Below are positions 1,405 through 56,700 of a stretch of 64,000 nucleotides of DNA, in pieces. The translations under genes and the position numbers were made by a program. The DNA lies in contig BFEA01000002.1 in the NCBI GenBank assembly GCA_003427395.1, positions 2,928,877 to 2,992,876 on the forward strand. Direction: 5' to 3'. How positions within the stretch are numbered: the first letter of the stretch is position 1; the number at the start of each line of letters is the position of its first letter. The notes below the pieces were generated by a model that did not search any database, was not told where the DNA came from, and saw only the letters and a program-made list of their open reading frames with translations. Origin of the DNA: Chara braunii. Its lineage: Eukaryota; Plantae; Charophyceae.

Positions 1405-2079
1405 AAAACTCTTGAGGAATTGTTTCATCTACTTATTTTTGCTCGTTTTTAATTTTGCGGAAGCAGATACGAGGTTTTTATTTTTTCATTTTTCATTTTT
1501 TTTGTGGAAGCAGATACGAGGTTTTCATTTATTTATTTCCTAGTTTAAGATTTCCTGTTTTATCTCCAGAGGACGTAGATCCCCATTCTCGTTTTGTTTT
1601 TCAGGCAGATATGAAAAAGCATAGCTGCGCATGAGCGTCACCGTACAGGACCGTTCGAAGAACGGACCTTACTATCTATTCGAACGGATTCAGAACAAAT
1701 AGGCATACGCGATTTAATCTTTTGTTCCGTACCGGAGGTAGACGTAGAAGATATAAGAAAGGGAGGCAAGGCTATTAGTCTCTCTTCTGGCAGAAGTACT
1801 CGTGAGGAGTACACCTTCCTGATGAGTCCGAGTGGACGGACGAAACTAGTTGAAGGACACTACGTTGCCTTGACATTGGGAGAAGTGGCTATGGTTTTCA
1901 TGGGTTTGAGCTACACAGGGAGTGAAGGGTGCATGGTCGGAACTCTTTGAGTCTTGTTTACTCCGAATTTTTGTCGCGACTCTTGAGTATCTATTTGCTG
2001 TCTGACACTCTTGTGAATGTCTGAATCCTGGTTACCTATGCCCTCCCTCACAGACTGTGTAGCCGCAGCCTGCCTCTCT
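1405..2079 (+). repeat. 5' pseudo-LTR (direct terminal repeat) of PLE-1
   Basis: Near-identical to 6814-7488 (offset 5409), from AAAACTCTTGAGGAATTG to GCAGCCTGCCTCTCT. Confidence 0.92.
1814..1856 (+). ncRNA. Minimal type I hammerhead ribozyme
   Basis: Stem I CCTTC/GAAGG, core CTGATGA, stem II GTCCG-AGTGGA-CGGAC, GAAA, palindromic minimal stem III (ACTAGT), predicted cleavage triplet GUU. Confidence 0.88.
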
Positions 2080-2463
2080 TGGGAGCATAGTAACCGGGGT
2101 TTCTAAGCTTTATGGTGGCTATGGTGTTGTGTACTTCTAGTTTCTAGTTTTCCTTACGTAGAATCCTGCGCGAGTATAGGATTTCTAGTTTCTTGTTTCT
2201 ATTCTCCGAATCGTTAGACTCTAGTTTAATTTTCTGTTCGCTAGTTGGTCGTTTTCCTTACGTAGAAGCTTGCGCGAGTGTAGGATGACTAGAACGACCA
2301 GTGAGATGAGCCACAACAACTAGGACTTCACACGGACTACATCGACAGGATCTATATCATTTGAGGGTTTGCTAGAGGAAGGACGTAGGACACGGATTCT
2401 TGAGAGTTAGGATGACGATAACTGGTAATTTCATAGAAGTTAAGACCAAGGAAGGTTGACAGG

Positions 2464-3713
2464 ATGTACAGCGGTTTCGGGAATGGTAACGGTACTAACG
2501 GGAACAATGGAAACAACGGAAACTTTGGAGGATATAACGGCAATGGAGGCGGTAATAGACCAGGTGGGGTAGTCTGCTATGAATGTGGGAAAACGGGACA
2601 CATCGCAAGAGATTGTTGGGCACGAAGAGGAAGGGCTAATCAACCAGAGGATGAAGTACGAATGTTCGTCCGAGAGATGATGAAGGAGAAAGAGAATGAG
2701 CAAGAGAAAAAGGCTAAGGAGGAGCAAGAACGTAGGAAGGAGGAAGACGAGAGGAGGAGGGAGCTGGATATTGCAAGACGAACGAAGGAAATGAGACTGC
2801 AATTGGAGGCAAGCATCGCAGAGAAATGGCGCCAGCAAAGACAGGAAGCCGAAGAGAAAGCCAAGGAAGCGACGAAGATTACACTGAAACAAAGCAGCCC
2901 CAAATCAAGTACCAAGGCAAGTCCGAAGAAGAGTCCGAAGCAACCAAGTCCGAAGATCTCACCAACGAGCAAAAGGATCGGGAAAGGGAAGAAGAAAGAC
3001 GGAAGAACTTCAAAAAGTCACCGAAAGAGGAAGAGCGGCCTGCGGAAAGACTACGACTCTGACACAACGGATTCAACTGAAGAAGAAAGCACCACATCCA
3101 AAGAATCAAGCAAGGATACGGACGATGAGACTAGAAGATTAATGAAAGCGATCAGAGGAGGGAGGAGACGAGCTGCATCCAGGAAGAAGAAGCAGGTGGA
3201 AGGGAAGAAGAAGAAGGAAGCGCAGGTCAAGTCAACTTTCGAATGAGGAGAATGCTCGAAGAAGAATAGCGATGTGACAACGACTACACGGGAGGAACCC
3301 AAGACACCAATGTCCGGAACATTTAAAGGCATAGCTGCGGGATGTTCACAACAAGGTTTGGTCGAATATACGGTCACAGTGATGAAAGAGTTGACAAAGA
3401 AAACGGTGTCACAGTTGAGGGAGATGTGCGAAAGGCAGGGTATCTAGTTTAAGAAAAAGGATGATATGATTGCCGACTGGTGAAGAGACAGACGGATCGC
3501 GCATACGATGTTTTTTTCAGTACCCCACTCAGTACAAAGGGGAACAAGCAGAGGTCGAAGCTTCAGGAAGATGAAGAAAGCGAAGCGGCCGAAGAGGTAC
3601 CTACGCAGCGGACGAAGACCAGCAGGAGCGCACGCGGGAAATCTAAGGACACGGCGACACCTCGTGTCATCTTACGATCCGCGGATATGCAAGTAGGGCA
3701 AGCGACCGATTGA
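2464..3713 (+). pseudogene. PLE-1 ORF1, gag-like: Gly/Asn-rich N-terminus, CCHC zinc knuckle, coiled coil, basic/acidic low complexity, SAP/HeH-like motif
   Basis: CYECGKTGHIARDC (CX2CX4HX4C); EK/R-rich coiled coil; ELTKKTVSQLREMCERQGI*FKKKDDMI at about 3388-3480. Interrupted by premature stops (3244, 3445) and one frameshift (~3480); ends at TGA 3711-3713. Confidence 0.8.
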
Positions 3714-6700
3714 CTATCTGCGCCCCCCACCTCTGAGGAGCTGTGGGAAACTCTTAATGAGCACATCGCTACTCGGAAGACCCTTAGGGGGCAGGGTGTG
3801 ACCGGCGAAGGTTTGGCAAAGATCGAGAGATGTCTGTCCACTACCATGATTCTTTTAGCACTAAGAGGCGATATCAGGTGGCTGGGAAAATATTTAGACA
3901 AGATGCATCTGGACGAAGATACGCTGGACCTACGGACATGCGATACCTATATTATTGCCAGTCCTTGGGCTGAGCGGGTTTACGTGGGCTGTACGTCAAG
4001 ATCGATCATACATAGATGGAGGCAGCATACTATCGCCGTAAATTCGAAGGTTCTTGGCAAGTCGCCGCTTCTGTATCGCTGGATGAGGAAACACGGACCT
4101 GATAACTTTGTGGTAATACCAATCCGACACACCACAGAGGATGAATGACCTCACGTTTGAACACCATCTCATCAGAGATCTATCACCAAGTCTGAATACG
4201 GTCGGGACAAAGAAGCAGCAACAGAACTTGAACAAGAGTAGGAGAAGAAGAGGAAGAAGAGAACGCAAGAGAAGGGGCAAGAAAACAAAAGGAAAGACTG
4301 TTGTGAGTTTCGACACTGAAGGAGCGCGCACTTCTCTGCTGAACTGGTTGGAAGAACACCACACCGAGGCAACGTGCGAAAGGGAAGTCATGTTTTCTGG
4401 TGGACAGCACTGGACGGATGGCTGGAGGAGTATACGAAGCAGCTTTGGTATGACGAGAGTCAAGATTCGTGGAAGGAACATGGAATTACGACAAGCGAAG
4501 GAGGAGTGTCAACAAGGAGGACATGTTACTTTCGTCACGATCATCAGGACCGCAACAGCTACAGAACGCAACAAGATCTTACTTCGACAGTTGCTTAGGC
4601 AATCGAGAACAGTAACGTCACTAGCAAAACTGGAAGCACCGAAGCTTGTTGGACTCTACAGAACGGTGGGTCTGTTCGGTAAGAAGTCGACTAGAAATAC
4701 GCTTAAAGTCAAGCTAGATCGAGTTATCGAGCGAAGAACCGGAGTAAGTGTTAGGAGGAAGATAACCGTTAAGTATCCTTACAGTTCTACTGTGAACAAG
4801 GCGGCAGTTAGGAAAGTCGCCGACTCGGTCGTGGATCTGAAAGTGGCAGATATGGCGGTCACTAACTTCCTGAAAAAGAAAACGTGAATAGTCACTAGTA
4901 GAAGTTAGACCGTAGCAGAGATAATCCATAACCAGAAGAGGTATGCAGATACTCAGGAGGTTGTCTGCTCGTGTAGAAACTTTAAGCTAGACAAGCACAA
5001 AGGACATGTGCTGACTAGGATGTCTGATATGAAATTTGCACCTGCTTTAATCCACAACGCTAAGAATGTTACACTCTGCAGTGTGAATACTGGAGCTGAC
5101 ATGATTCGAGTTAGTATACAGACGACAACAACACACCTCAAAGGGAAGGACTGTGGAGACCTGGATGTGAATCCCTGCTTCAAGCGACGGAATGAAACAG
5201 TAACCGCATGGACTGACGAACAGGTTGGAGCATGGATTAGACGATTTAAAGGTTTAGTACTCACACCGATTGACCGCAACGCTGGAGACACAAGAATCAT
5301 CTGTCCGGTCCTATACAGACATGGCTTCGGGATAACGTTTGTCTGGAATTCAGACTACGAAACAGTAGAAAGTACCGAGGAAGAAGTTATCAGGATGTGC
5401 AAACAACAATTTTTGGAAGGAGGACTGTTACAGACAGGAGGATGGAAAGCAGATGGACGGTTAGGTAAGGCATATACGATACCCAAGGACAAAGACATGT
5501 TACGATGGCGACTGATTGCCCCTGCCTGTGGAGATCCGGCAGGGGTTGGACAACGTAGATGTGCGAAGGCACTTTACTGCTTGGCAACGCGTCTCCGTGC
5601 ACATTCCAACTTCCATCTCAACTCCGCGAAGACACTGGTGCAAGAACTTAGACATGCCAACCAGACACTAGAACAGACTGGTTGCAGTATGGCAATCGGA
5701 CGTTGCTATGATATTAAGGAAATGTTTTCCTCAATTGAGCACGCAACAGTCCTGGATGTTGTCTTCCAACTACTGCGCAGGTTTGAAAATGATGGTTGAG
5801 ACAAGTAAGAGTGGCGCTCAGAGGAAAGAACTGCATTATGTCAAAGACAAACTGGAAAGAAGCAGGTTATGCATCTCTGACTTTCGAGCACATTCTGACT
5901 CTGATGAAGTACGACCTCAAGCATGCGTTTATGGTTTGTGGTGAGAAGATTATGAGGCAGGTCATGGGGATCCCTATGGGAAAAACCACAAGTCCAGTCC
6001 TGGCCATCATTACTTGTATCATGGCGGAATGCAAGCTTCTGGCGTCACTTGGGTCAGACAGGAAGCTCATTCATGGTTGGCGGATGGTGGATGATGTTTC
6101 CATCGTTGTCGGATGTAATGACGAATCCAAATCATGGGTCAAGGCTGAAGACATCATTAAGACATTCGAGAACAGTTATGACAGCAGCCTCAAGCTCATC
6201 CGCAAAGATGAGGACATCAACTGTTGGCCGTTTATCGGAGGAAGGATCTGCGTCGCAAGCGAACCCGTGCAACTACATTTTTTCCAAGAAACGAAGAACA
6301 TGTCAACACTACGGGATACAGGGACCCTTCGATATCAGACTATGCAAGATTTCAGCAGCTACTTGGACAAGAAAACGAAGAAGATTGTGCTGCACGCCAC
6401 GCTTAGGAGGCTCTGGCATGTTGCGACCTCACCAGCGTTAAGCATTAGTGCGATAGCATATGCACTTGTAGAAAGTTACCTCCGGGGATACAACCCGGAG
6501 GTCTCTCTCGGGGCCTTGGCTAAGTTAGCCAAGGATACGGGTGACCAGCTGTTGTACCAATTATTTTCCCTCTTCGAGATATTGGGGGCTACAGGCAAGG
6601 CCTCGAAATCGGACGTCTCATTCATGACGCTCCCCAACCGACAGAAAGCACCCAGTTTCGTTCGGACACTGGAAAGCCACGGGAAACTCCAGGGCTTGAC

Positions 6701-6731
6701 TGACAAAGTGTCAGAGGACACATGTGGGTAA
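3714..6731 (+). pseudogene. PLE-1 GIY-YIG endonuclease + reverse transcriptase
   Basis: DTYIIASPWAERVYVGCTSRSIIHRWRQH (GIY-YIG), HN...VVCSC, LTPIDRNAGD, IPKDKD..WRLI, CYDIKEMFSSI, GIPMGKTTSPVLA, WRMVDDV. Frameshifts near 4141 and 5796, stop at 4885. Confidence 0.88.
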
Positions 6732-6813
6732 GGGATACTATCTACGACATTAGTCACGTAGATGGAATACCGTTTTTGGATCTTTTCGCGAACTTTTATT
6801 TTCTCCCTTCGCG

Positions 6814-7481
6814 AAAACTCTTGAGGAATTGTCTCATCTACTTATTTTTGCTCGTTTTTAATTTTGCGGAAACAGATACGAGGTTTTCATTTTTTCATTT
6901 TTCATTTTTTTTGCGGAAGCAGATACGAGGTTTTCATTTATTTATTTCCTAGTTTAAGATTTCCTGTTTTATCTCCAGAGGACGTAGATCCCCATTCTCG
7001 TTTTGTTTTTCGGGCAGATATGAAAAAGCATAGCTGCGCATGAGCGTCACCGTACAAGACCGTTAGAAGAACGAACCTGACTATCTTTCCGAACGGATTT
7101 AGAACAAATAGGCATACGCGATTTAATATTTTGTTCCGTACCGGAGGTAGACGTAGAAGATATAAGACAGGGAGGCAAGGGTATTAGTCTCTCTTCTGGC
7201 AGAAGTACTCGTGAGGAGTACACCTTCCTGATGAGTCCGAGTGGACGGACGAAACTAGTTGAAGGACACTATGTTGCCTTGACACTGGGAGAAGTGGCTA
7301 TGGTTTTCATGGGTTTGAGCTACACAGGGAGTGAAGGGTGCATGGTCGGAACTCTTTGAGTCTTGTTTACTACGAATTTTTGTTGCGACTCTTGAGTATC
7401 TATTTGTTGTCTGACACTCTTGTGAATGTCTGAATCCTGGTTACCTATGCCCTCCCTCACAGACTGTGTAGCCGCAGCCTG

Positions 7482-7488
<7 letters not shown>
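6814..7488 (+). repeat. 3' pseudo-LTR of PLE-1
   Basis: Direct repeat of 1405-2079. Confidence 0.92.
7223..7265 (+). ncRNA. Minimal type I hammerhead ribozyme (second copy)
   Basis: Identical to 1814-1856: CCTTC CTGATGA GTCCGAGTGGACGGAC GAAACTAGTT GAAGG. Confidence 0.88.
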
Positions 7489-25720: not shown

Positions 25721-28700
25721 CAACCCGAGAGGGTGCTAGGGGTGCTGGTAAGAGCAGACACCGCTAGCACTCCCGGGGAGGCTCCATCTATTGGTGGGGA
25801 GCATCACCTGCTGGAAACCGGGTCCAGCGTCCCATTTTTTACATATCGTTGGGAATGTCTTGTGCTGAGTAAAAAGGAGAAGACTGAGAAAACAAAAGTT
25901 AAGAAAACTGAGAAAAATTTAAGAAAGAAAAAAAATAGGCAAACTGAGCAACTGCCTATCCGTGTCTGCGCCTTTTCCCCCATAGCACAGTGGTCCGTTC
26001 TTTTTCTGTCCCCTCGATTCCTGCCCTGTACTGCCCGCTGTCTCGGGCCTCTAAAGCCTGACTTCCATTGCCAAGGGATGGGGGGGGAAAGGGTCTGGGA
26101 AAAACTCAGGGGCCCGCATGGGGATGCTGGGGTCTATTGATGTCCAGTCCTTGGAGGTGAGACGGTAATCTCGTGGGACTGATGCCTGCTGGTCTTCTTG
26201 TCTTGTCTGCCCATCACTGTCGTTGTCGCCCGACCACTGTACACTAGCCACCCATCCTTCTCTTGGACCGCCCAGCCATTCGTTGGCAAATTTGGAGATC
26301 TTTTCTGATATGTCTTTGGGCCTGTGGTGTGTGTCCAGCACCTGTTTCATTTCCCGCCATCTCTGCATAATCTCAAGCTGGAAGCAGTTTTTAAACTGTT
26401 CCTTCCTTTCCTCCCCTTCAACTCTGACTCCCTCCATTGTCAATGTGCAGCGCTGCCACCATAGAACCCATAGCACCGTCCTCCTTGCCAGAGCGAACAT
26501 GTTCCTTGCATAGTTTGTGTCCTGCAGACCTGGATGGTGGCCCAAGAGGAGTGCTCTCCAGTCCCATGGCCATGGTTGGTCCGGAACCATCTGCCTCCAC
26601 ACCCTCTCCCACCATCTCCATGTTAGGACTGTCGTCGGGCATTGCAGGAAGACATGTTCTATTGTTTCAATTCTCCTTTGGGATGGGAAGCTTTGGAGGC
26701 AGCGAAAACACCATGGATGAGCCCGTCCTTGTTGTTCCAACTGAGTATGGTCAATTATCCAATTATTTGTGGGAAGACAGCGGTGGGCAATCTGCCATTG
26801 AAGGGACGTGGTTTTGGCCGGTTTACACTTGTTGTCCTGAAACCATTTTATTGGGGATAACAGCTGCCTATCCACATTGAGGTGTTGCTGCCACCTATCG
26901 ATTACTACGTCCTGCACATTCCTTTTAACACGTAGCATCTTATATGTGGCTTTTACTGACAAGTTGTTAACAGTTTTCTGTCTGTTGTTTATTTGATTTG
27001 TCTTTTGTGAGGGGTGCCATTGCCATTCGGCGGGGTCNAGGGGGAGTTTTGATATTGGNGTGTCCGGCCTGTATGCTCTACGTTCATCCCCTTCCCCCAG
27101 GGTCCTGATCCTGTGAAGGGTCGCTTTGTCAATCCGTTCGAAAGACGCTCCACTGCTAATTAGTTCTCCCTTTCTCCCTGCCCTGTATCATTCTACCCAC
27201 ACGTCTGCCTGCTGCTCAACATGAACTTGTCCCACTCGGTGAGATTCTCCCTCCTTTATTACCCAGTCCCCTTCCTGTATTTTTGGACCTCTACGCAGGA
27301 TGGGTCGCCAGGCTAGAGGGAGTGCCTCTACAATCTCCCCCAACGATTCCTCAATGTTTCGACAGTATCTCAATTTGTCTCTCATTTGGTCCGGATCTTT
27401 TCAGTCCTTGCGTTCCCCATCCCAGAGGTCCCCTACTCTCATTACCCCCCTTTTTACCCATCCTTTCCACGGGGGATCCGAACTGCAAAAAATTTGGCTT
27501 CGAGAGTTGGTAATCCAACAATTTCCAAAGAGGGGTTGCCTCATTATTTCCTCCCATCTTTCGGGGGCCGGGCGCTGCGGGAGGGGTAGAGCTCTCCATA
27601 TTTTTATTATTCGCGGCCAAAAATCATCTTTTGTCCCCTCTATTGTTTCTGCCCCCCGTGCTCTTCTTGGTACTTTCCAATAGCGGTCGTCCAACCAGCA
27701 TAGAGGATCAACCGTTGGTGGGACTTCCGGTGCAAGTCGGGCAATTTGTTTCAGGGTCAGTGGTCTCCAAAGGAGTGGAAAGACCAGGATCAAACACAGG
27801 ATCCATTGTAGGCATAGTGCCTGTATTTGGGTCATCGGATCCAGAATACCCAGGCCCCCTTGGGCTTTGGGTTGTATCACCGAGTCCCAAGCCACCCGAC
27901 TGATGGTCGTTGCGTTTTCGCTGTCACCTCTCCATAGGTAGGCCGCCACCTTTCTCTTTAAGGATTTTTGGGCCGGTTTGCTAAGGAGCCACAAGACCGA
28001 TTTGTACCATAGGGTGACCAGTACTACATTATTGATCACTAGAGCCCTCCCAAAAAGTGATGTGTGTTTGTGATGCCACTAGAGGAGCTTTTGGAGAGTT
28101 GGAGATGCGAGTCACTTATCATTCTCAGTCGGGCAGCCTTTTGCAGTCATCTTGACTCCCAGGACCCGCACAGGTTCGTCCAGGTCCAACCATGTAATCT
28201 CAGGGAGTTCCGGTGGGCGGCCCCCTTGTTGGTGAAGCCACCAGCCAAGCGTTTTTTGTCCTCAGTTTACTGCCATATCCGAGAGCAAGCAGAAGCGATC
28301 TATTAGCCGCTGGATTTCTTCCATGTTGGAGGATCAAAATCGCAGGCATACCAGAATGACTTCTTCTGGTATGCCTGCGATTTTGATCCTCTGCAGGCTT
28401 TTGCTGTGCCTGAGGTTGGCTGCCAGGGCCTCCATGATGATAATGAAAAGGAATAGGGTTATGGGGTCCCCTTAGCGAACCGACCTTTAACGTCTGATTT
28501 CGGGCGCCAGAGTGCTATTTATCTGGACCCGGGTTGTCCCATTTTGGTGCAAGATCCTCACCCACCTTTGAAAGCAGGGGCCAAAATTCATTCGTTCGAG
28601 GCATTCGTCTAGGAAAATCCAGTCCACATGATCGTATGCTTTTTCAAAATCGATAAAGATAAAAGCTGCGTTGCATCCGGACTGGCACGAGAGTTTGATT

Positions 28701-53710: not shown

Positions 53711-56700
53711 TCAGGCAACGAATTGTTTCCTCAGGCTGGCTGNNNNNNNNNNNNNNNNNNNNNNNNNNNNNNNNNNNNNNNNNNNNNNNNNNNNNNNNNN
53801 NNNNNNNNNNNNNNNNNNNNNNNNNNNAGGTGTAGGCCATGGAGGGGTCACGGGAGTCAAGGGTGGAGGCGTAGGGGTCCCCGGGGGCGAGGCTGAGGGT
53901 GGGGAAGGCGGCGGTGACGGGATCGGGGGAGGAGGACCGGACGGGAGAGGAGGGGACCATGCTGGCAATGGAGGAGAGGGTGAGTCCCCCGAGTCCCCGG
54001 CCGGGACCTGCTGCTCATCGGTCCGTGGAGCATCCTCAAGTGCTCGATCGTGGCCAGGCAGGGGTGTATGGAAGCAATTTTCCGGCCTATAAACCCACCT
54101 GTGTTGCTCCGCAGCCCAGTTTTTCCATATTAACCTACCGTCATTTTGTATGTCTGCCATTTTGCGGTTCGGGTCTATCCACTTTTGTTTGAAGGCCAAG
54201 ATCGCCCTTTGTTTGTCCACCTGGTCCGGGGCAGCCGCCACCGTTTTCACCAGCTTCCTGCTTGCGCTTGTCAGGTTCTGTCGGATGACCTCAAGCAGTT
54301 CTTCTTTGGCCTGGTGCAGGGCAAAAGTGTATTCCTTGCGCTTTGCCGAGCAGCGCATGCGCCATATAACCATGAGGAGGGCAAGCCTCATATGTTTGAA
54401 TAGGTTCACCTGGAAGGGCGACCAAAGTCGAGGAAAGCTTTTCCTTTTTCCCAACAGAATGAGAGCCACGTTCCATTGGAAGGGCGATGCCGTGAGTTCG
54501 TGCCACATCGCATCCCACCACTGCCACACTTGTACCGCCATCGGGCAGGCCAACAGACAATGTTCCAGGTCTGCGCGTCTGGCTGGCGCACCTTCCCCGC
54601 ATTGGGAGCAGATAGGGGAAAAGACTTCCGCTTGTTCCAGTTTTGTGCGTGCTGTTATCCAATCAGGTGTCGGTAGACAGCGGTGCGTTATCTGCCATTG
54701 CAGGGCCCTGTGCGATGTCGGCATTATATGTGCGTGGGCCGACCATGGGATGTGTTGCAACTCTGCGTCACGCAGTGACGAATCCCGTTTCCATCTATTT
54801 TGCACCACCATTGTAGAGGAGTGGAGCTTATGGGCCTATTTGTATCCTCCTTTAACCGTATATTGCTAGATGTGTGTGGGTTTTCTTCCTTTCCATACCC
54901 ATTCGTCAGGGTCGAATGGGAGTGCGCAGATCCGGGAGGTCATTTCGTAGGCATAAAAGCCTGAGTCCTCGTCCCCGACTACCCTGATCCTAGATAGCTC
55001 TTCCATTGGAAGCATGCAATCTAGGCTTTGGTCTCTTTTCAGGGCAGCCTAGCGCGCTCCTGGAACATCTAGAGCATAGGCATGCAACTGCATTCCTTGG
55101 TCAGTGGCGCGATGTACCCTGAAGATGGTCATGGGGATCGGGTTGGCCGTGTTCCTTATGACCCAGTCGTGGCTGCGCACTGTCGGTCCGTTCTGCAGGG
55201 TTGCCGCCCATGAGGGTGGGACCCTGCGGTGGATGAAGCTGAGTTTTTCCTGGCTATCCTTGACGTGTCTCAGGTTTCGCCGCAGCTGCTCTGCGGACTT
55301 CCAGGTGCCTCTCTGGCTATCCCAGAGGTCCCCCACCACAAAGAGGCCATTTTTCACCCATGTCAGCCAATGTGAGCCGGTTTCCAACGAGAGTGGACAC
55401 CCTGTTTCGTCACAGAGTTGTGGATTGCCAAACAAAGGCTGCCACCATATCTCTTGCCATCTCAGCGGGGGAGGCTTCTTGGATGGCCCCATCTGCCTCC
55501 ACAGATTTAACATTGTTATCCACATAGGGTCCTGTTTCAGGTCCCATCTCACGGCGTTTCTAGCCATACCATCCCTTCTATGGCGTGGGGGGTCTAGCAC
55601 AGACCAGGCTGTGTTTGTAAACCATGTGAGGGGGTGGACCGGGTTATCGCAGTGCGAGGGGGGGGCCAGGTTAGCCAATTGTATGTACGCCAAAGGTAAC
55701 CACGGTATGTCGTTCGCTAATAGCAAACGGACGATGACTTTGAACATGAGAGCCTTGGTTTCGTCCCCAGGGTCCAAGATGCCAAGCCCACCCACCTTCT
55801 TTGGCTGGGATACGTACTTCCAAGCCACCCTTTTTAGACATCCCGTCCGCTTGTGATCGTTTCTCCATAAATAGGCTGACAGAGCGGCTCTGAGGTGCGC
55901 TAATTGTTTTTTGGGTATTTCCCAGAAGGCCGTTTTGTACCAGATTGTGGCAAGGATGGCGTTATTAATTGTCAGCGCCCTTCCTACCAGCGATGTGTGA
56001 AGACCATCCCATTTGCTAGCCTTTGGAGAGCTAACTGCAGCATCGTCTGTCCATGATCATGGGGGGGGGCCAAAGTTGTCAGTCAGATACCCAGAATGCG
56101 TATGACTTCCTCTCTCGGGCGCCAGTTGATCGGTGGTTGTTGTGGGGGTTGGCTGTCTTGTGGGGACAACCACCAGCCCTCCGTCTTTGTTCCCCAGTTC
56201 ACCTTCATGTCGGTTGCGACCGCAAAGGCTTGGATGGTCTCGGTTAAGGCTTGAAGGGAGGCAATCGTAGCTCGGATAAGGACCGTAAGGTCATCGGCAA
56301 ACAGGGAGGTGACCGGCACCATATGAGGGGGCAGCTCCGGGATGTCTATGCGCTCTATGCGCGTGTTAGCTCTTATCATTGCCGCTAATGCCTCCATCAC
56401 CAAGAGGAAGAGGAGGGGGGCTATGGGGTCGCCTTGCCTCACTGACCGTTGCAGACCGAAAGGAGGAGACAGGTGGCCATTAACCATAACGTTTGTGACC
56501 GTGGTCCTATGCATAATTNNNNNNNNNNNNNNNNNNNNNNNNNNNNNNNNNNNNNNNNNNNNNNNNNNNNNNNNNNNNNNNNNNNNNNNNNNNNNNNNNN
56601 NNNNNNNNNNNNNNNNNNGCCTTCTCGAAATCTATAAAGAGGACCGCAGCGTCCTTGCCGTGCTGCCTGGCATATTTGATGGTCTCGCTGACCAGCAGGA

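What the first reader, a model, noticed from the sequence alone, without database searches (positions are those of the whole stretch)
3690..3850. Penelope-like elements with a retrovirus-style gag/pol junction: a stop codon at nearly the same position before EN-RT, suggesting programmed readthrough
Seen in PLE-1: the gag-like ORF1 ends at TGA 3711-3713 and the same frame continues without stops into the GIY-YIG domain (*LSAPPTSEELWETLNEH...LALRGDIRWLGKY). The context is TGA-CTA. Seen in PLE-2, which is very divergent: ORF1 ends at TAG 38992-38994 followed by GGT and reads *GLFPTWLIFES, then with a single-base frame correction at 39027 LVRH...LTLTGQIPWANKF. The stop therefore sits within one codon of the same place relative to a shared PT...[W/F]E[T/S]L..H motif, and PLE-2 has no ATG before its GIY-YIG. 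Established: UGA-CUA (alphavirus type) and UAG-G (gammaretrovirus type) are known leaky-stop contexts, and endonuclease-containing PLEs are usually described as single-ORF. Inference: these PLEs make abundant ORF1 plus a minor ORF1-EN-RT fusion by readthrough, like LTR/retroviral gag-pol. Caveat: both copies carry other C>T-type premature stops, so the ancestor could instead be one ~1,400-aa gag-EN-RT polyprotein, which would also be unusual.
Basis: partly seen in the sequence, partly recalled or inferred. Interest (0 to 1): 0.85.

Follow-up and report, generated by a model that had tools for sequence, protein, structure and literature searches.

The report
Start-less enzyme gene in algal retrotransposons
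These are decayed copies of a known two-gene Penelope-like jumping gene of a stonewort-type alga: the stop between the two genes is real and fixed, but the enzyme gene often has no start codon and sits in a different reading frame in different families, so it is likely made by ribosomes restarting after the first gene rather than reading through the stop.

Summary
Both elements are decayed members of the two-ORF Chlamys group of Penelope-like elements already described in Chara braunii (Craig et al. [quoted passage not shown] The PLE-1 stop (TGA 3711-3713) is real and fixed. The published Chlamys-5_cBra consensus and four Chara ORF1-only proteins end at the same column, so a single polyprotein is ruled out for this clade.

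The PLE-2 support fails. Two sister copies show no indel at 39027 and Trp where the window has TGA 39021, so its EN-RT frame is -1 and overlaps the end of ORF1. In Chlamys-2_cBra the frame is +1. Stop contexts vary, and no stimulatory fold, slippery site or SECIS was found.

What remains unusual: EN-RT must begin within a few codons of the ORF1 stop, often has no AUG before its endonuclease, and wanders between three frames. The best explanation is termination-coupled, AUG-independent reinitiation as in LINE-1 (0.45). Rivals are readthrough limited to the in-frame clade (0.22) and splicing (0.2). No RNA reads tested this. The scan had not noted it on other DNA.

The parts
1405..2079 (+). PLE-1 upstream terminal repeat (pLTR)
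   Evidence: 97.0% identical to 6814-7488 over 675 bases
1819..1845 (+). Hammerhead ribozyme core in the upstream pLTR
   Evidence: pattern match; identical to the 3' copy
2464..3713 (+). PLE-1 ORF1: Gly/Asn-rich start, one CCHC zinc knuckle, coiled-coil/basic region, three-helix domain, acidic tail. Broken by stops at 3244 and 3445 and a frameshift near 3480-3490
   Evidence: zf-CCHC E=9.8e-7; homologs mostly have R/K at the sporadic stops
3711..3713 (+). Fixed ORF1 stop TGA (context TGA CTA), 30 bases before the first conserved Trp codon of ORF2 (3744)
3714..6731 (+). PLE-1 ORF2 (helical N-domain, GIY-YIG, CxC at 4966-4974, RT), same frame as the ORF1 tail. First ATG is 45 codons in (3846). 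Broken by frameshifts near 4148 and 5800 and stops at 4885 and 4906
6814..7488 (+). PLE-1 3' pLTR with hammerhead core 7228-7254, followed by (CT)n/(TA)n
   Evidence: Rfam Hammerhead_3 26.2 bits, E=0.0043, below gathering 48.5
36958..37497 (+). PLE-2 upstream terminal repeat (partly N)
   Evidence: 95.8% to 42244-42457 and 82% to 42593-42798
37585..38994 (+). PLE-2 ORF1 with CCHC knuckle, premature TAGs at 38152 and 38620, ending at TAG 38992-38994
   Evidence: the final TAG is kept in a second copy
38970..41986 (+). PLE-2 ORF2 (EN-RT) in the -1 frame, overlapping the last 8 codons of ORF1. TGA 39021-39023 is a copy-specific loss of the conserved Trp. Frameshift near 40040-40050; CxC at 40274-40282
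38966..38995 (+). Branch-point-like YTRAY and a pyrimidine-rich TAG|G that coincides with the ORF1 stop (possible 3' splice site; rival reading)
   Evidence: 1 of 347 AGs in the PLE-2 body under post hoc criteria
42244..42798 (+). PLE-2 3' terminal repeat (partly N)

Best explanation
These are two-gene Penelope-like elements whose first gene always ends at a fixed stop, and whose enzyme gene (endonuclease plus reverse transcriptase) is likely made as a separate protein by a few ribosomes that finish the first gene and restart nearby, likely without needing an AUG. Shown: a fixed ORF1 stop; ORF2 in frame 0 (PLE-1, Chlamys-5), -1 (PLE-2 family) or +1 (Chlamys-2); the first conserved ORF2 Trp 4-30 bases past the stop in those four; no AUG before the endonuclease in three of the four. 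Predicted: the 44 residues before PLE-1's first AUG fold as a helical part of the protein. Inferred and untested: a single bicistronic RNA from the pLTR promoter, abundant ORF1 protein coating the RNA, and low-level termination-reinitiation as reported for LINE-1 and SART1.
For: Frame is not conserved but proximity is: PLE-1 frame 0, 30 bases from stop to Trp; Chlamys-5_cBra frame 0, 30 bases; PLE-2 family -1, 26 bases; Chlamys-2_cBra +1, 4 bases. One frame-blind mechanism explains all four; readthrough or frameshifting would need three different ones. There is no in-frame ATG before the end of the GIY-YIG domain in Chlamys-5, Chlamys-2 (by eye) or the window's PLE-2. The ORF2 N-terminus is a confident helical hairpin starting 7 residues after the stop (pLDDT 93, helices 7-26 and 32-50), so the AUG at codon 45 would cut it. 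No recoding signal was found: fold z-scores -0.33 to 1.01 for four downstream windows, crude pseudoknot score reached by 22 and 99 of 100 shuffles, no slippery heptamer. Where AUGs occur they lie right at the junction: the second PLE-2 copy has ATG at 39009 (runs X1, X2) and 39027, and model P0027 starts with Met 10 residues before the conserved Trp. Precedent: LINE-1 ORF2 is AUG-independent, perhaps by reinitiation (PMC11485995, passage); SART1 and LINE-1 use termination-reinitiation (PMC5972666, passages).
Against: No direct evidence of translation or even of transcription: no RNA read lay on either element body. No conserved start codon, near-cognate codon or TURBS core (TGGGA) was found in the 120 bases before either stop. 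In the PLE-1 clade the stop stays in frame and exactly 11 codons before the Trp across proteins only about 45% alike, as readthrough would require. Two gene models, P0068 (Arg at the stop column) and P0033 (Trp), appear to run through the junction in one frame. A review argues that reinitiation after a long ORF is improbable for most non-LTR elements with long spacers (PMC3894237, passage); spacers here are short. Both elements have their best splice-acceptor-like site at the junction.
Confidence: 0.45

Rival explanations
1. Family-specific recoding gives an ORF1-EN-RT fusion. In the in-frame clade (PLE-1, Chlamys-5) ribosomes read through the UGA; other families would use -1 or +1 frameshifts.
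For: The stop is UGA, in frame and at a fixed column in PLE-1 and Chlamys-5, and four more ORF1 proteins end at that column. P0068 and P0033 have Arg and Trp at that column, residues one transition away from UGA. PLE-1 has UGA-C, the Sindbis-type context (PMC2194720 Background). Athena PLEs can have ORF1 separated by a frameshift with a pseudoknot (PMC8557442 Fig. 1 legend).
Against: The context is not conserved (UGA-UGG in Chlamys-5). There is no stimulatory structure and no slippery site in PLE-2's 25-base overlap. It needs three mechanisms. Tca2 warns that an in-frame UGA with a plausible pseudoknot did not give readthrough from its flanks when tested in yeast (PMC2194720 abstract).
Confidence: 0.22
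2. Alternative splicing removes the ORF1 stop, or all of ORF1, and supplies ORF2 with an upstream start, as in copia or the Chlamys-3_cRei isoforms.
For: A branch-point + pyrimidine + AG|G scan gives one site per element, both at the junction: 38994 (1 of 347 AGs) and 3737 (1 of 406, only when the -3 pyrimidine is not required). PLEs keep introns, and Chlamys-3_cRei has an alternative 5' intron that shifts the start codon (PMC8557442 passage).
Against: The criteria were chosen after seeing the sites, and stop codons and Ser/Thr/Pro codons explain much of the pattern. The PLE-1 acceptor is GAG (rare; recalled) and in phase 0, while both strong donors found upstream are phase 1 (phases worked out by hand). 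Acceptor phase differs between PLE-1 and PLE-2. Chara gene models that bridge the junction cut it at many different places, as an ab initio predictor avoiding a stop would.
Confidence: 0.2
3. ORF2 has its own RNA (a promoter inside ORF1) or internal ribosome entry, starting at a non-AUG or downstream AUG codon.
For: A minor junction promoter was found in Tca2. Several Chara models start at a Met about 17 codons into ORF2 (P0006, P0019, P0024).
Against: It does not explain why ORF2 always begins within a few codons of the ORF1 stop. The downstream Met is absent in PLE-1, Chlamys-2 and Chlamys-5.
Confidence: 0.08
4. The ancestor was one ~1,400-aa gag-EN-RT polyprotein and the junction stop is decay (CGA>TGA or CAG>TAG).
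For: 2 of 27 models holding both ORF1 and ORF2 look continuous (P0033, P0068). The authors' protein file joins ORF1 and ORF2 into entries of about 1,400 residues.
Against: CGA>TGA decay in PLE-1 is only 2 of 22 CGA-or-TGA sites apart from the junction. The Chlamys-5 consensus has the stop, four ORF1 proteins end there, and none of the fused models of that clade reads through. ORF2 is out of frame in PLE-2 and Chlamys-2.
Confidence: 0.03
5. The in-frame UGA is recoded as selenocysteine, as in some Naiad PLEs.
For: Charophyceae have the complete Sec machinery (PMC6627142 passage); Naiad selenoproteins exist.
Against: No SECIS family hit in PLE-1's 3' region; the one pattern match folds at only -2.6 kcal/mol. 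It is irrelevant to the out-of-frame families.
Confidence: 0.02

Closest known systems
Chlamys-5_cBra and Chlamys-2_cBra (Chara braunii two-ORF Chlamys PLEs; Craig et al. 2021, PMC8557442)
   Same: Upstream ORF1 with a gag-like CCHC knuckle, N-terminal GIY-YIG, CxC, RT, 3' hammerhead, pLTRs, (CT)n next to the element. PLE-1's ORF1 stop is at the same column and frame as in Chlamys-5.
   Different: The window copies are decayed members of other families. PLE-2 has a -1 overlap not seen in either consensus. The paper describes the layout but does not discuss how ORF2 is translated ('readthrough' 0 and 'translation' 0 hits in the main text; 'readthrough' 0 in the supplement).
LINE-1 and SART1 non-LTR retrotransposons (ORF2 by termination-reinitiation)
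   Same: Bicistronic ORF1 (RNA-binding type) then EN-RT, with the ORF2 start close to the ORF1 stop; LINE-1 ORF2 is AUG-independent.
   Different: Different RT class and nuclease (APE). They have an AUG (SART1 UAAUG; LINE-1 after a 63-nt spacer), whereas several Chara families have none. The mechanism is untested here.
MuLV, Tca2 and SIRE1 (ORFs separated by an in-frame stop)
   Same: An in-frame stop between a gag-like ORF and the enzyme ORF, in the PLE-1/Chlamys-5 clade.
   Different: No purine spacer plus pseudoknot or CARYYA context; sister families are out of frame. ORF1 has one knuckle near its N-terminus, and no capsid family was hit in Pfam.
Athena EN-less PLEs
   Same: A PLE whose ORF1 can be separate from the RT ORF (Fig. 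1 legend of PMC8557442).
   Different: Athena uses a frameshift with a pseudoknot, lacks the endonuclease and is telomeric; no such signal was found here.

Membership tests
Chlamys (N-terminal EN+ PLE) | GIY-YIG endonuclease N-terminal to RT | tested here: met
   Pfam GIY-YIG weak hits in both elements and RVT_1 in PLE-2; I-TevI is the top fold match; order
Chlamys (N-terminal EN+ PLE) | CxC motif between EN and RT | tested here: met
   CSC at 4966-4974 and 40274-40282
Chlamys (N-terminal EN+ PLE) | EN lacks the CCHH and CX2-5CxxC fingers of Naiad | tested here: met
   Not seen in the translations P0001 and P0002, read by eye
Chlamys (N-terminal EN+ PLE) | Partial tandem pseudo-LTRs | tested here: met
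   Direct repeats at 97% and 96%
Chlamys (N-terminal EN+ PLE) | RT phylogeny inside the Naiad/Chlamys clade; insertion-in-fingers domain | not tested
   No RT tree with reference clades was built; only an EN-region tree of Chara models
Chara two-ORF type (Chlamys-2/5_cBra) | Upstream ORF1 with zf-CCHC | tested here: met
   zf-CCHC above cut-off in both ORF1s
Chara two-ORF type (Chlamys-2/5_cBra) | 3' hammerhead ribozyme | tested here: met
   PLE-1 core at 7228-7254 with stems. None found in PLE-2, whose repeats are partly N
Programmed stop-codon readthrough (gag-pol type) | Downstream ORF in the same frame as the stop | tested here: inconclusive
   Met in PLE-1 and Chlamys-5; not met in the PLE-2 family (-1) or Chlamys-2 (+1)
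Programmed stop-codon readthrough (gag-pol type) | Conserved leaky context or downstream stimulatory structure | tested here: not met
   Contexts TGA-CTA, TGA-TGG, TGA-TGT, TAG-GGT; folds no better than shuffles
Programmed stop-codon readthrough (gag-pol type) | Fusion protein made at low level | not testable with these tools
   Needs a reporter, ribosome profiling or proteomics
Termination-reinitiation | Downstream ORF begins close to the upstream stop in any frame | tested here: met
   4-30 bases from stop to first conserved Trp, in frames 0, -1 and +1
Termination-reinitiation | TURBS-type UGGGA tether upstream of the stop (calicivirus form only) | tested here: not met
   No TGGGA in the 120 bases before either stop. 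SART1 uses a downstream structure instead, and no such motif is described for LINE-1 in the passages read
Termination-reinitiation | ORF2 output depends on ORF1 translation and stop position | not testable with these tools
   Needs a reporter assay
Retroviral/LTR Gag | Capsid domain in ORF1 | tested here: inconclusive
   No capsid family in Pfam. The conserved ORF1 domain models as three helices with only weak SAP/LEM/Rho-N-like matches, Z 4.3-5.6

The most novel reading that the evidence does not exclude
Chara's two-ORF Penelope-like elements make their endonuclease-reverse transcriptase with no AUG at all, by ribosomes that restart in any frame right at the ORF1 stop. This would be the LINE-1 trick reinvented in the retroelement group closest to telomerase, with natural 0, -1 and +1 variants side by side in one genome as a ready-made test series.
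Probability: 0.35. Interest if true: 0.65.

Novelty: new member of a known kind. Interest (0 to 1): 0.38.

Why it matters
The element type is known, but how its enzyme gene is expressed has not been addressed in the papers found. AUG-independent restarting after a long ORF is known from few eukaryotic cases and its mechanism is still unclear. Families in one genome with three different stop-to-ORF2 frames would let a simple reporter series separate reinitiation, readthrough and splicing. Practically, about 25 annotated Chara 'genes' bridge this junction with inconsistent predicted introns and are probably mis-modelled transposon copies.

Tried and rejected
No whole genome was held, so family consensus sequences could not be built from genomic copies. 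No RNA holder was listed for PLE-1. RNA reads from runs X5 and X6 (6-12% of each run read) hit only a low-complexity patch of PLE-1, and X7 gave 0 reads on PLE-2's junction; these are no test of expression or splicing. The PLE-1 lay showed two other copies over the junction and no row at 3711-3716 among the 40 rows shown, but 219 rows were not shown, so it is weak support only. Word-based homolog searches for longer proteins gave 1 hit and 0 hits. The metagenome scan found nothing. An idea that a conserved ACG next to the stop is the start codon was dropped: it came from the wrong frame in PLE-2, and PLE-1 has ACC with no shared change shown at 3731. UGAUG stop-start overlaps in Chlamys-2 and -5 open only short ORFs in a third frame (by eye). 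Chlamys-3_cBra (-1 frame, 41 bases) was left out of the counts because its authors mark the consensus as doubtful. No SECIS or TURBS core was found. The first tree attempt failed on a name error. The second places PLE-1 with P0006-P0009/P0011 and PLE-2 with P0029/P0072, but P0068 and P0012 have gapped models and unreliable positions. The ORF1 domain had no clear solved match. Earlier scan notes held nothing on this junction.
Full report
What is in the window. Six-frame translation and a self-comparison show two Penelope-like elements on the + strand, each between direct terminal repeats: PLE-1 (1405-7488; repeats 97% alike) and PLE-2 (36958-42798). Each has an ORF1 with one CCHC zinc knuckle (Pfam above cut-off), then a GIY-YIG domain, a CxC motif and a reverse transcriptase. 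Both are dead copies with stops and frameshifts. All 10 of 10 homologous proteins whose names I looked up are Chara braunii gene models, as are the 29 hits, so the host is inferred to be this alga or a close relative.

The layout is known. Craig et al. [quoted passage not shown] PLE-1 also has the hammerhead core in both repeats and ends beside a (CT)n tract, the target preference listed for Chlamys-5. The paper does not discuss how ORF2 is translated. Five library searches (listings only) found no paper that does; the library lacks most subscription journals.

The PLE-1 stop is real and fixed. TGA 3711-3713 is followed by CTA and 144 open codons. In the Chlamys-5_cBra consensus, read by eye, ORF1 ends in TGA nine residues after the same RSA motif, and ORF2 follows in the same frame with the conserved Trp 11 codons after the stop, exactly as in PLE-1. 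Of 39 Chara models with the ORF1 C-terminal domain, 12 are ORF1-only. The 4 of these that keep the RSA/KST motif (P0053, P0055, P0057, P0059) all end nine residues after it. The other 27 also contain ORF2. By contrast, PLE-1's other stops align with sense residues, for example Arg in 28 of 32 alignments at 4885 and Lys in 14 of 22 at 3445. Twenty CGA codons survive against two sporadic TGAs. Decay of one polyprotein does not explain the junction.

The PLE-2 argument does not hold. Laying DNA contigs on 38900-39140 (the runs may include the window's own source) showed a second copy spanning the whole stretch with 25 differences and no gap. It keeps TAG 38992-38994, has no indel at 39027, and has G at 39023, so the TGA at 39021 in the endonuclease frame is TGG. 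So the homologous P-x5-W motif lies in the -1 frame, which is open from 38970 and overlaps the last eight codons of ORF1. The Chlamys-2_cBra consensus has yet another offset: the ORF1 frame closes again shortly after its TGA, while ORF2 runs in +1 and overlaps the ORF1 end (counted by eye).

Signals. Stop contexts are TGA-CTA, TGA-TGG, TGA-TGT and TAG-GGT. The 100-150 bases after each window stop fold no better than shuffles (z -0.33, 1.01, 0.25, 0.07). A crude pseudoknot score was reached by 22 and 99 of 100 codon shuffles. There is no slippery heptamer and no TGGGA core, and no SECIS, although Charophyceae have the Sec machinery (PMC6627142, passages).

What needs explaining. ORF2's first conserved Trp lies 30, 30, 26 and 4 bases past the ORF1 stop in the four families. 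A model of PLE-1's first 144 ORF2 residues (15-sequence alignment, pLDDT 93) has helices from residue 7, ahead of an I-TevI-like core, so the protein is predicted to start within about six codons of the stop. Yet PLE-1's first AUG is codon 45, PLE-2's is codon 298, and neither published consensus has one before the end of the endonuclease. Against a strict no-AUG rule: the second PLE-2 copy has ATG at 39009 (2 of 3 runs) and at 39027, though the third copy has neither, and model P0027 begins with Met at the junction.

Mechanism. A start that is tied to the stop's position, blind to frame and tolerant of non-AUG codons is the pattern of termination-reinitiation. Reviews describe this for caliciviruses, SART1 and LINE-1 (PMC5972666 passages; PMC11485995 passage; a sceptical view in PMC3894237 passages). 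I put it at 0.45; every step beyond the sequence pattern is inferred. Readthrough remains possible only for the in-frame clade (0.22). It is favoured by the rigid frame and spacing there and by P0033 and P0068, and weakened by the lack of signals and by the Tca2 precedent (PMC2194720 abstract and Background). Splicing (0.2) has one striking point, that each element's best acceptor-like site is at the junction. But the criteria were post hoc, PLE-1's site is a GAG in a phase that matches neither donor found, and gene models do not agree on a site. No RNA read covered either element, so none of this is tested.

On 'retrovirus-style gag'. ORF1 has one knuckle near its start and a conserved three-helix domain with only weak SAP/LEM/Rho-N-like matches; no capsid family was hit. 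It looks more like the RNA-binding ORF1 of non-LTR elements than a retroviral Gag, but this is inconclusive.

Verdict. These are new, decayed members of a published element type. The remaining point, an often AUG-less EN-RT gene coupled to a fixed stop in three frames, appears undiscussed and is easy to test. Interest 0.38.

Noticed in passing
window:526-1347 (-): Inverted RT fragment of another Penelope-like family just before PLE-1's upstream repeat (26-36% identity to Chara PLE proteins; 44% to PLE-1).
   Followed up: no
window:51897-51997 (-): U6 snRNA copy, 91.6 bits.
   Followed up: no
window:9949-11202, 26051-27187, 35872-36831, 53711-56056 (-): Long reading frames that look like remains of L1-type non-LTR elements (APE/RT-like motifs judged by eye).
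   Followed up: no
window:3709-3740 and 38966-38995: Each element's best branch-point + pyrimidine + AG|G site lies at the ORF1/ORF2 junction.
   Followed up: partly
P0022, P0064, P0066, P0067 (Chara gene models): In one sister family two fused models join at the same place, which is also about where two ORF1-only models end. A splice donor may overlap that family's ORF1 stop.
   Followed up: no
P0033, P0068, P0027: Two models seem to run through the junction with Trp or Arg at the stop column, and one begins with Met at the junction. Their DNA would show whether fused or AUG-bearing families exist.
   Followed up: partly
window:3340-3510 and 38713-38880: The conserved ORF1 domain models as three helices with weak SAP/LEM/Rho-N-like matches; it may be an unnamed nucleic-acid-binding module.
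   Followed up: partly
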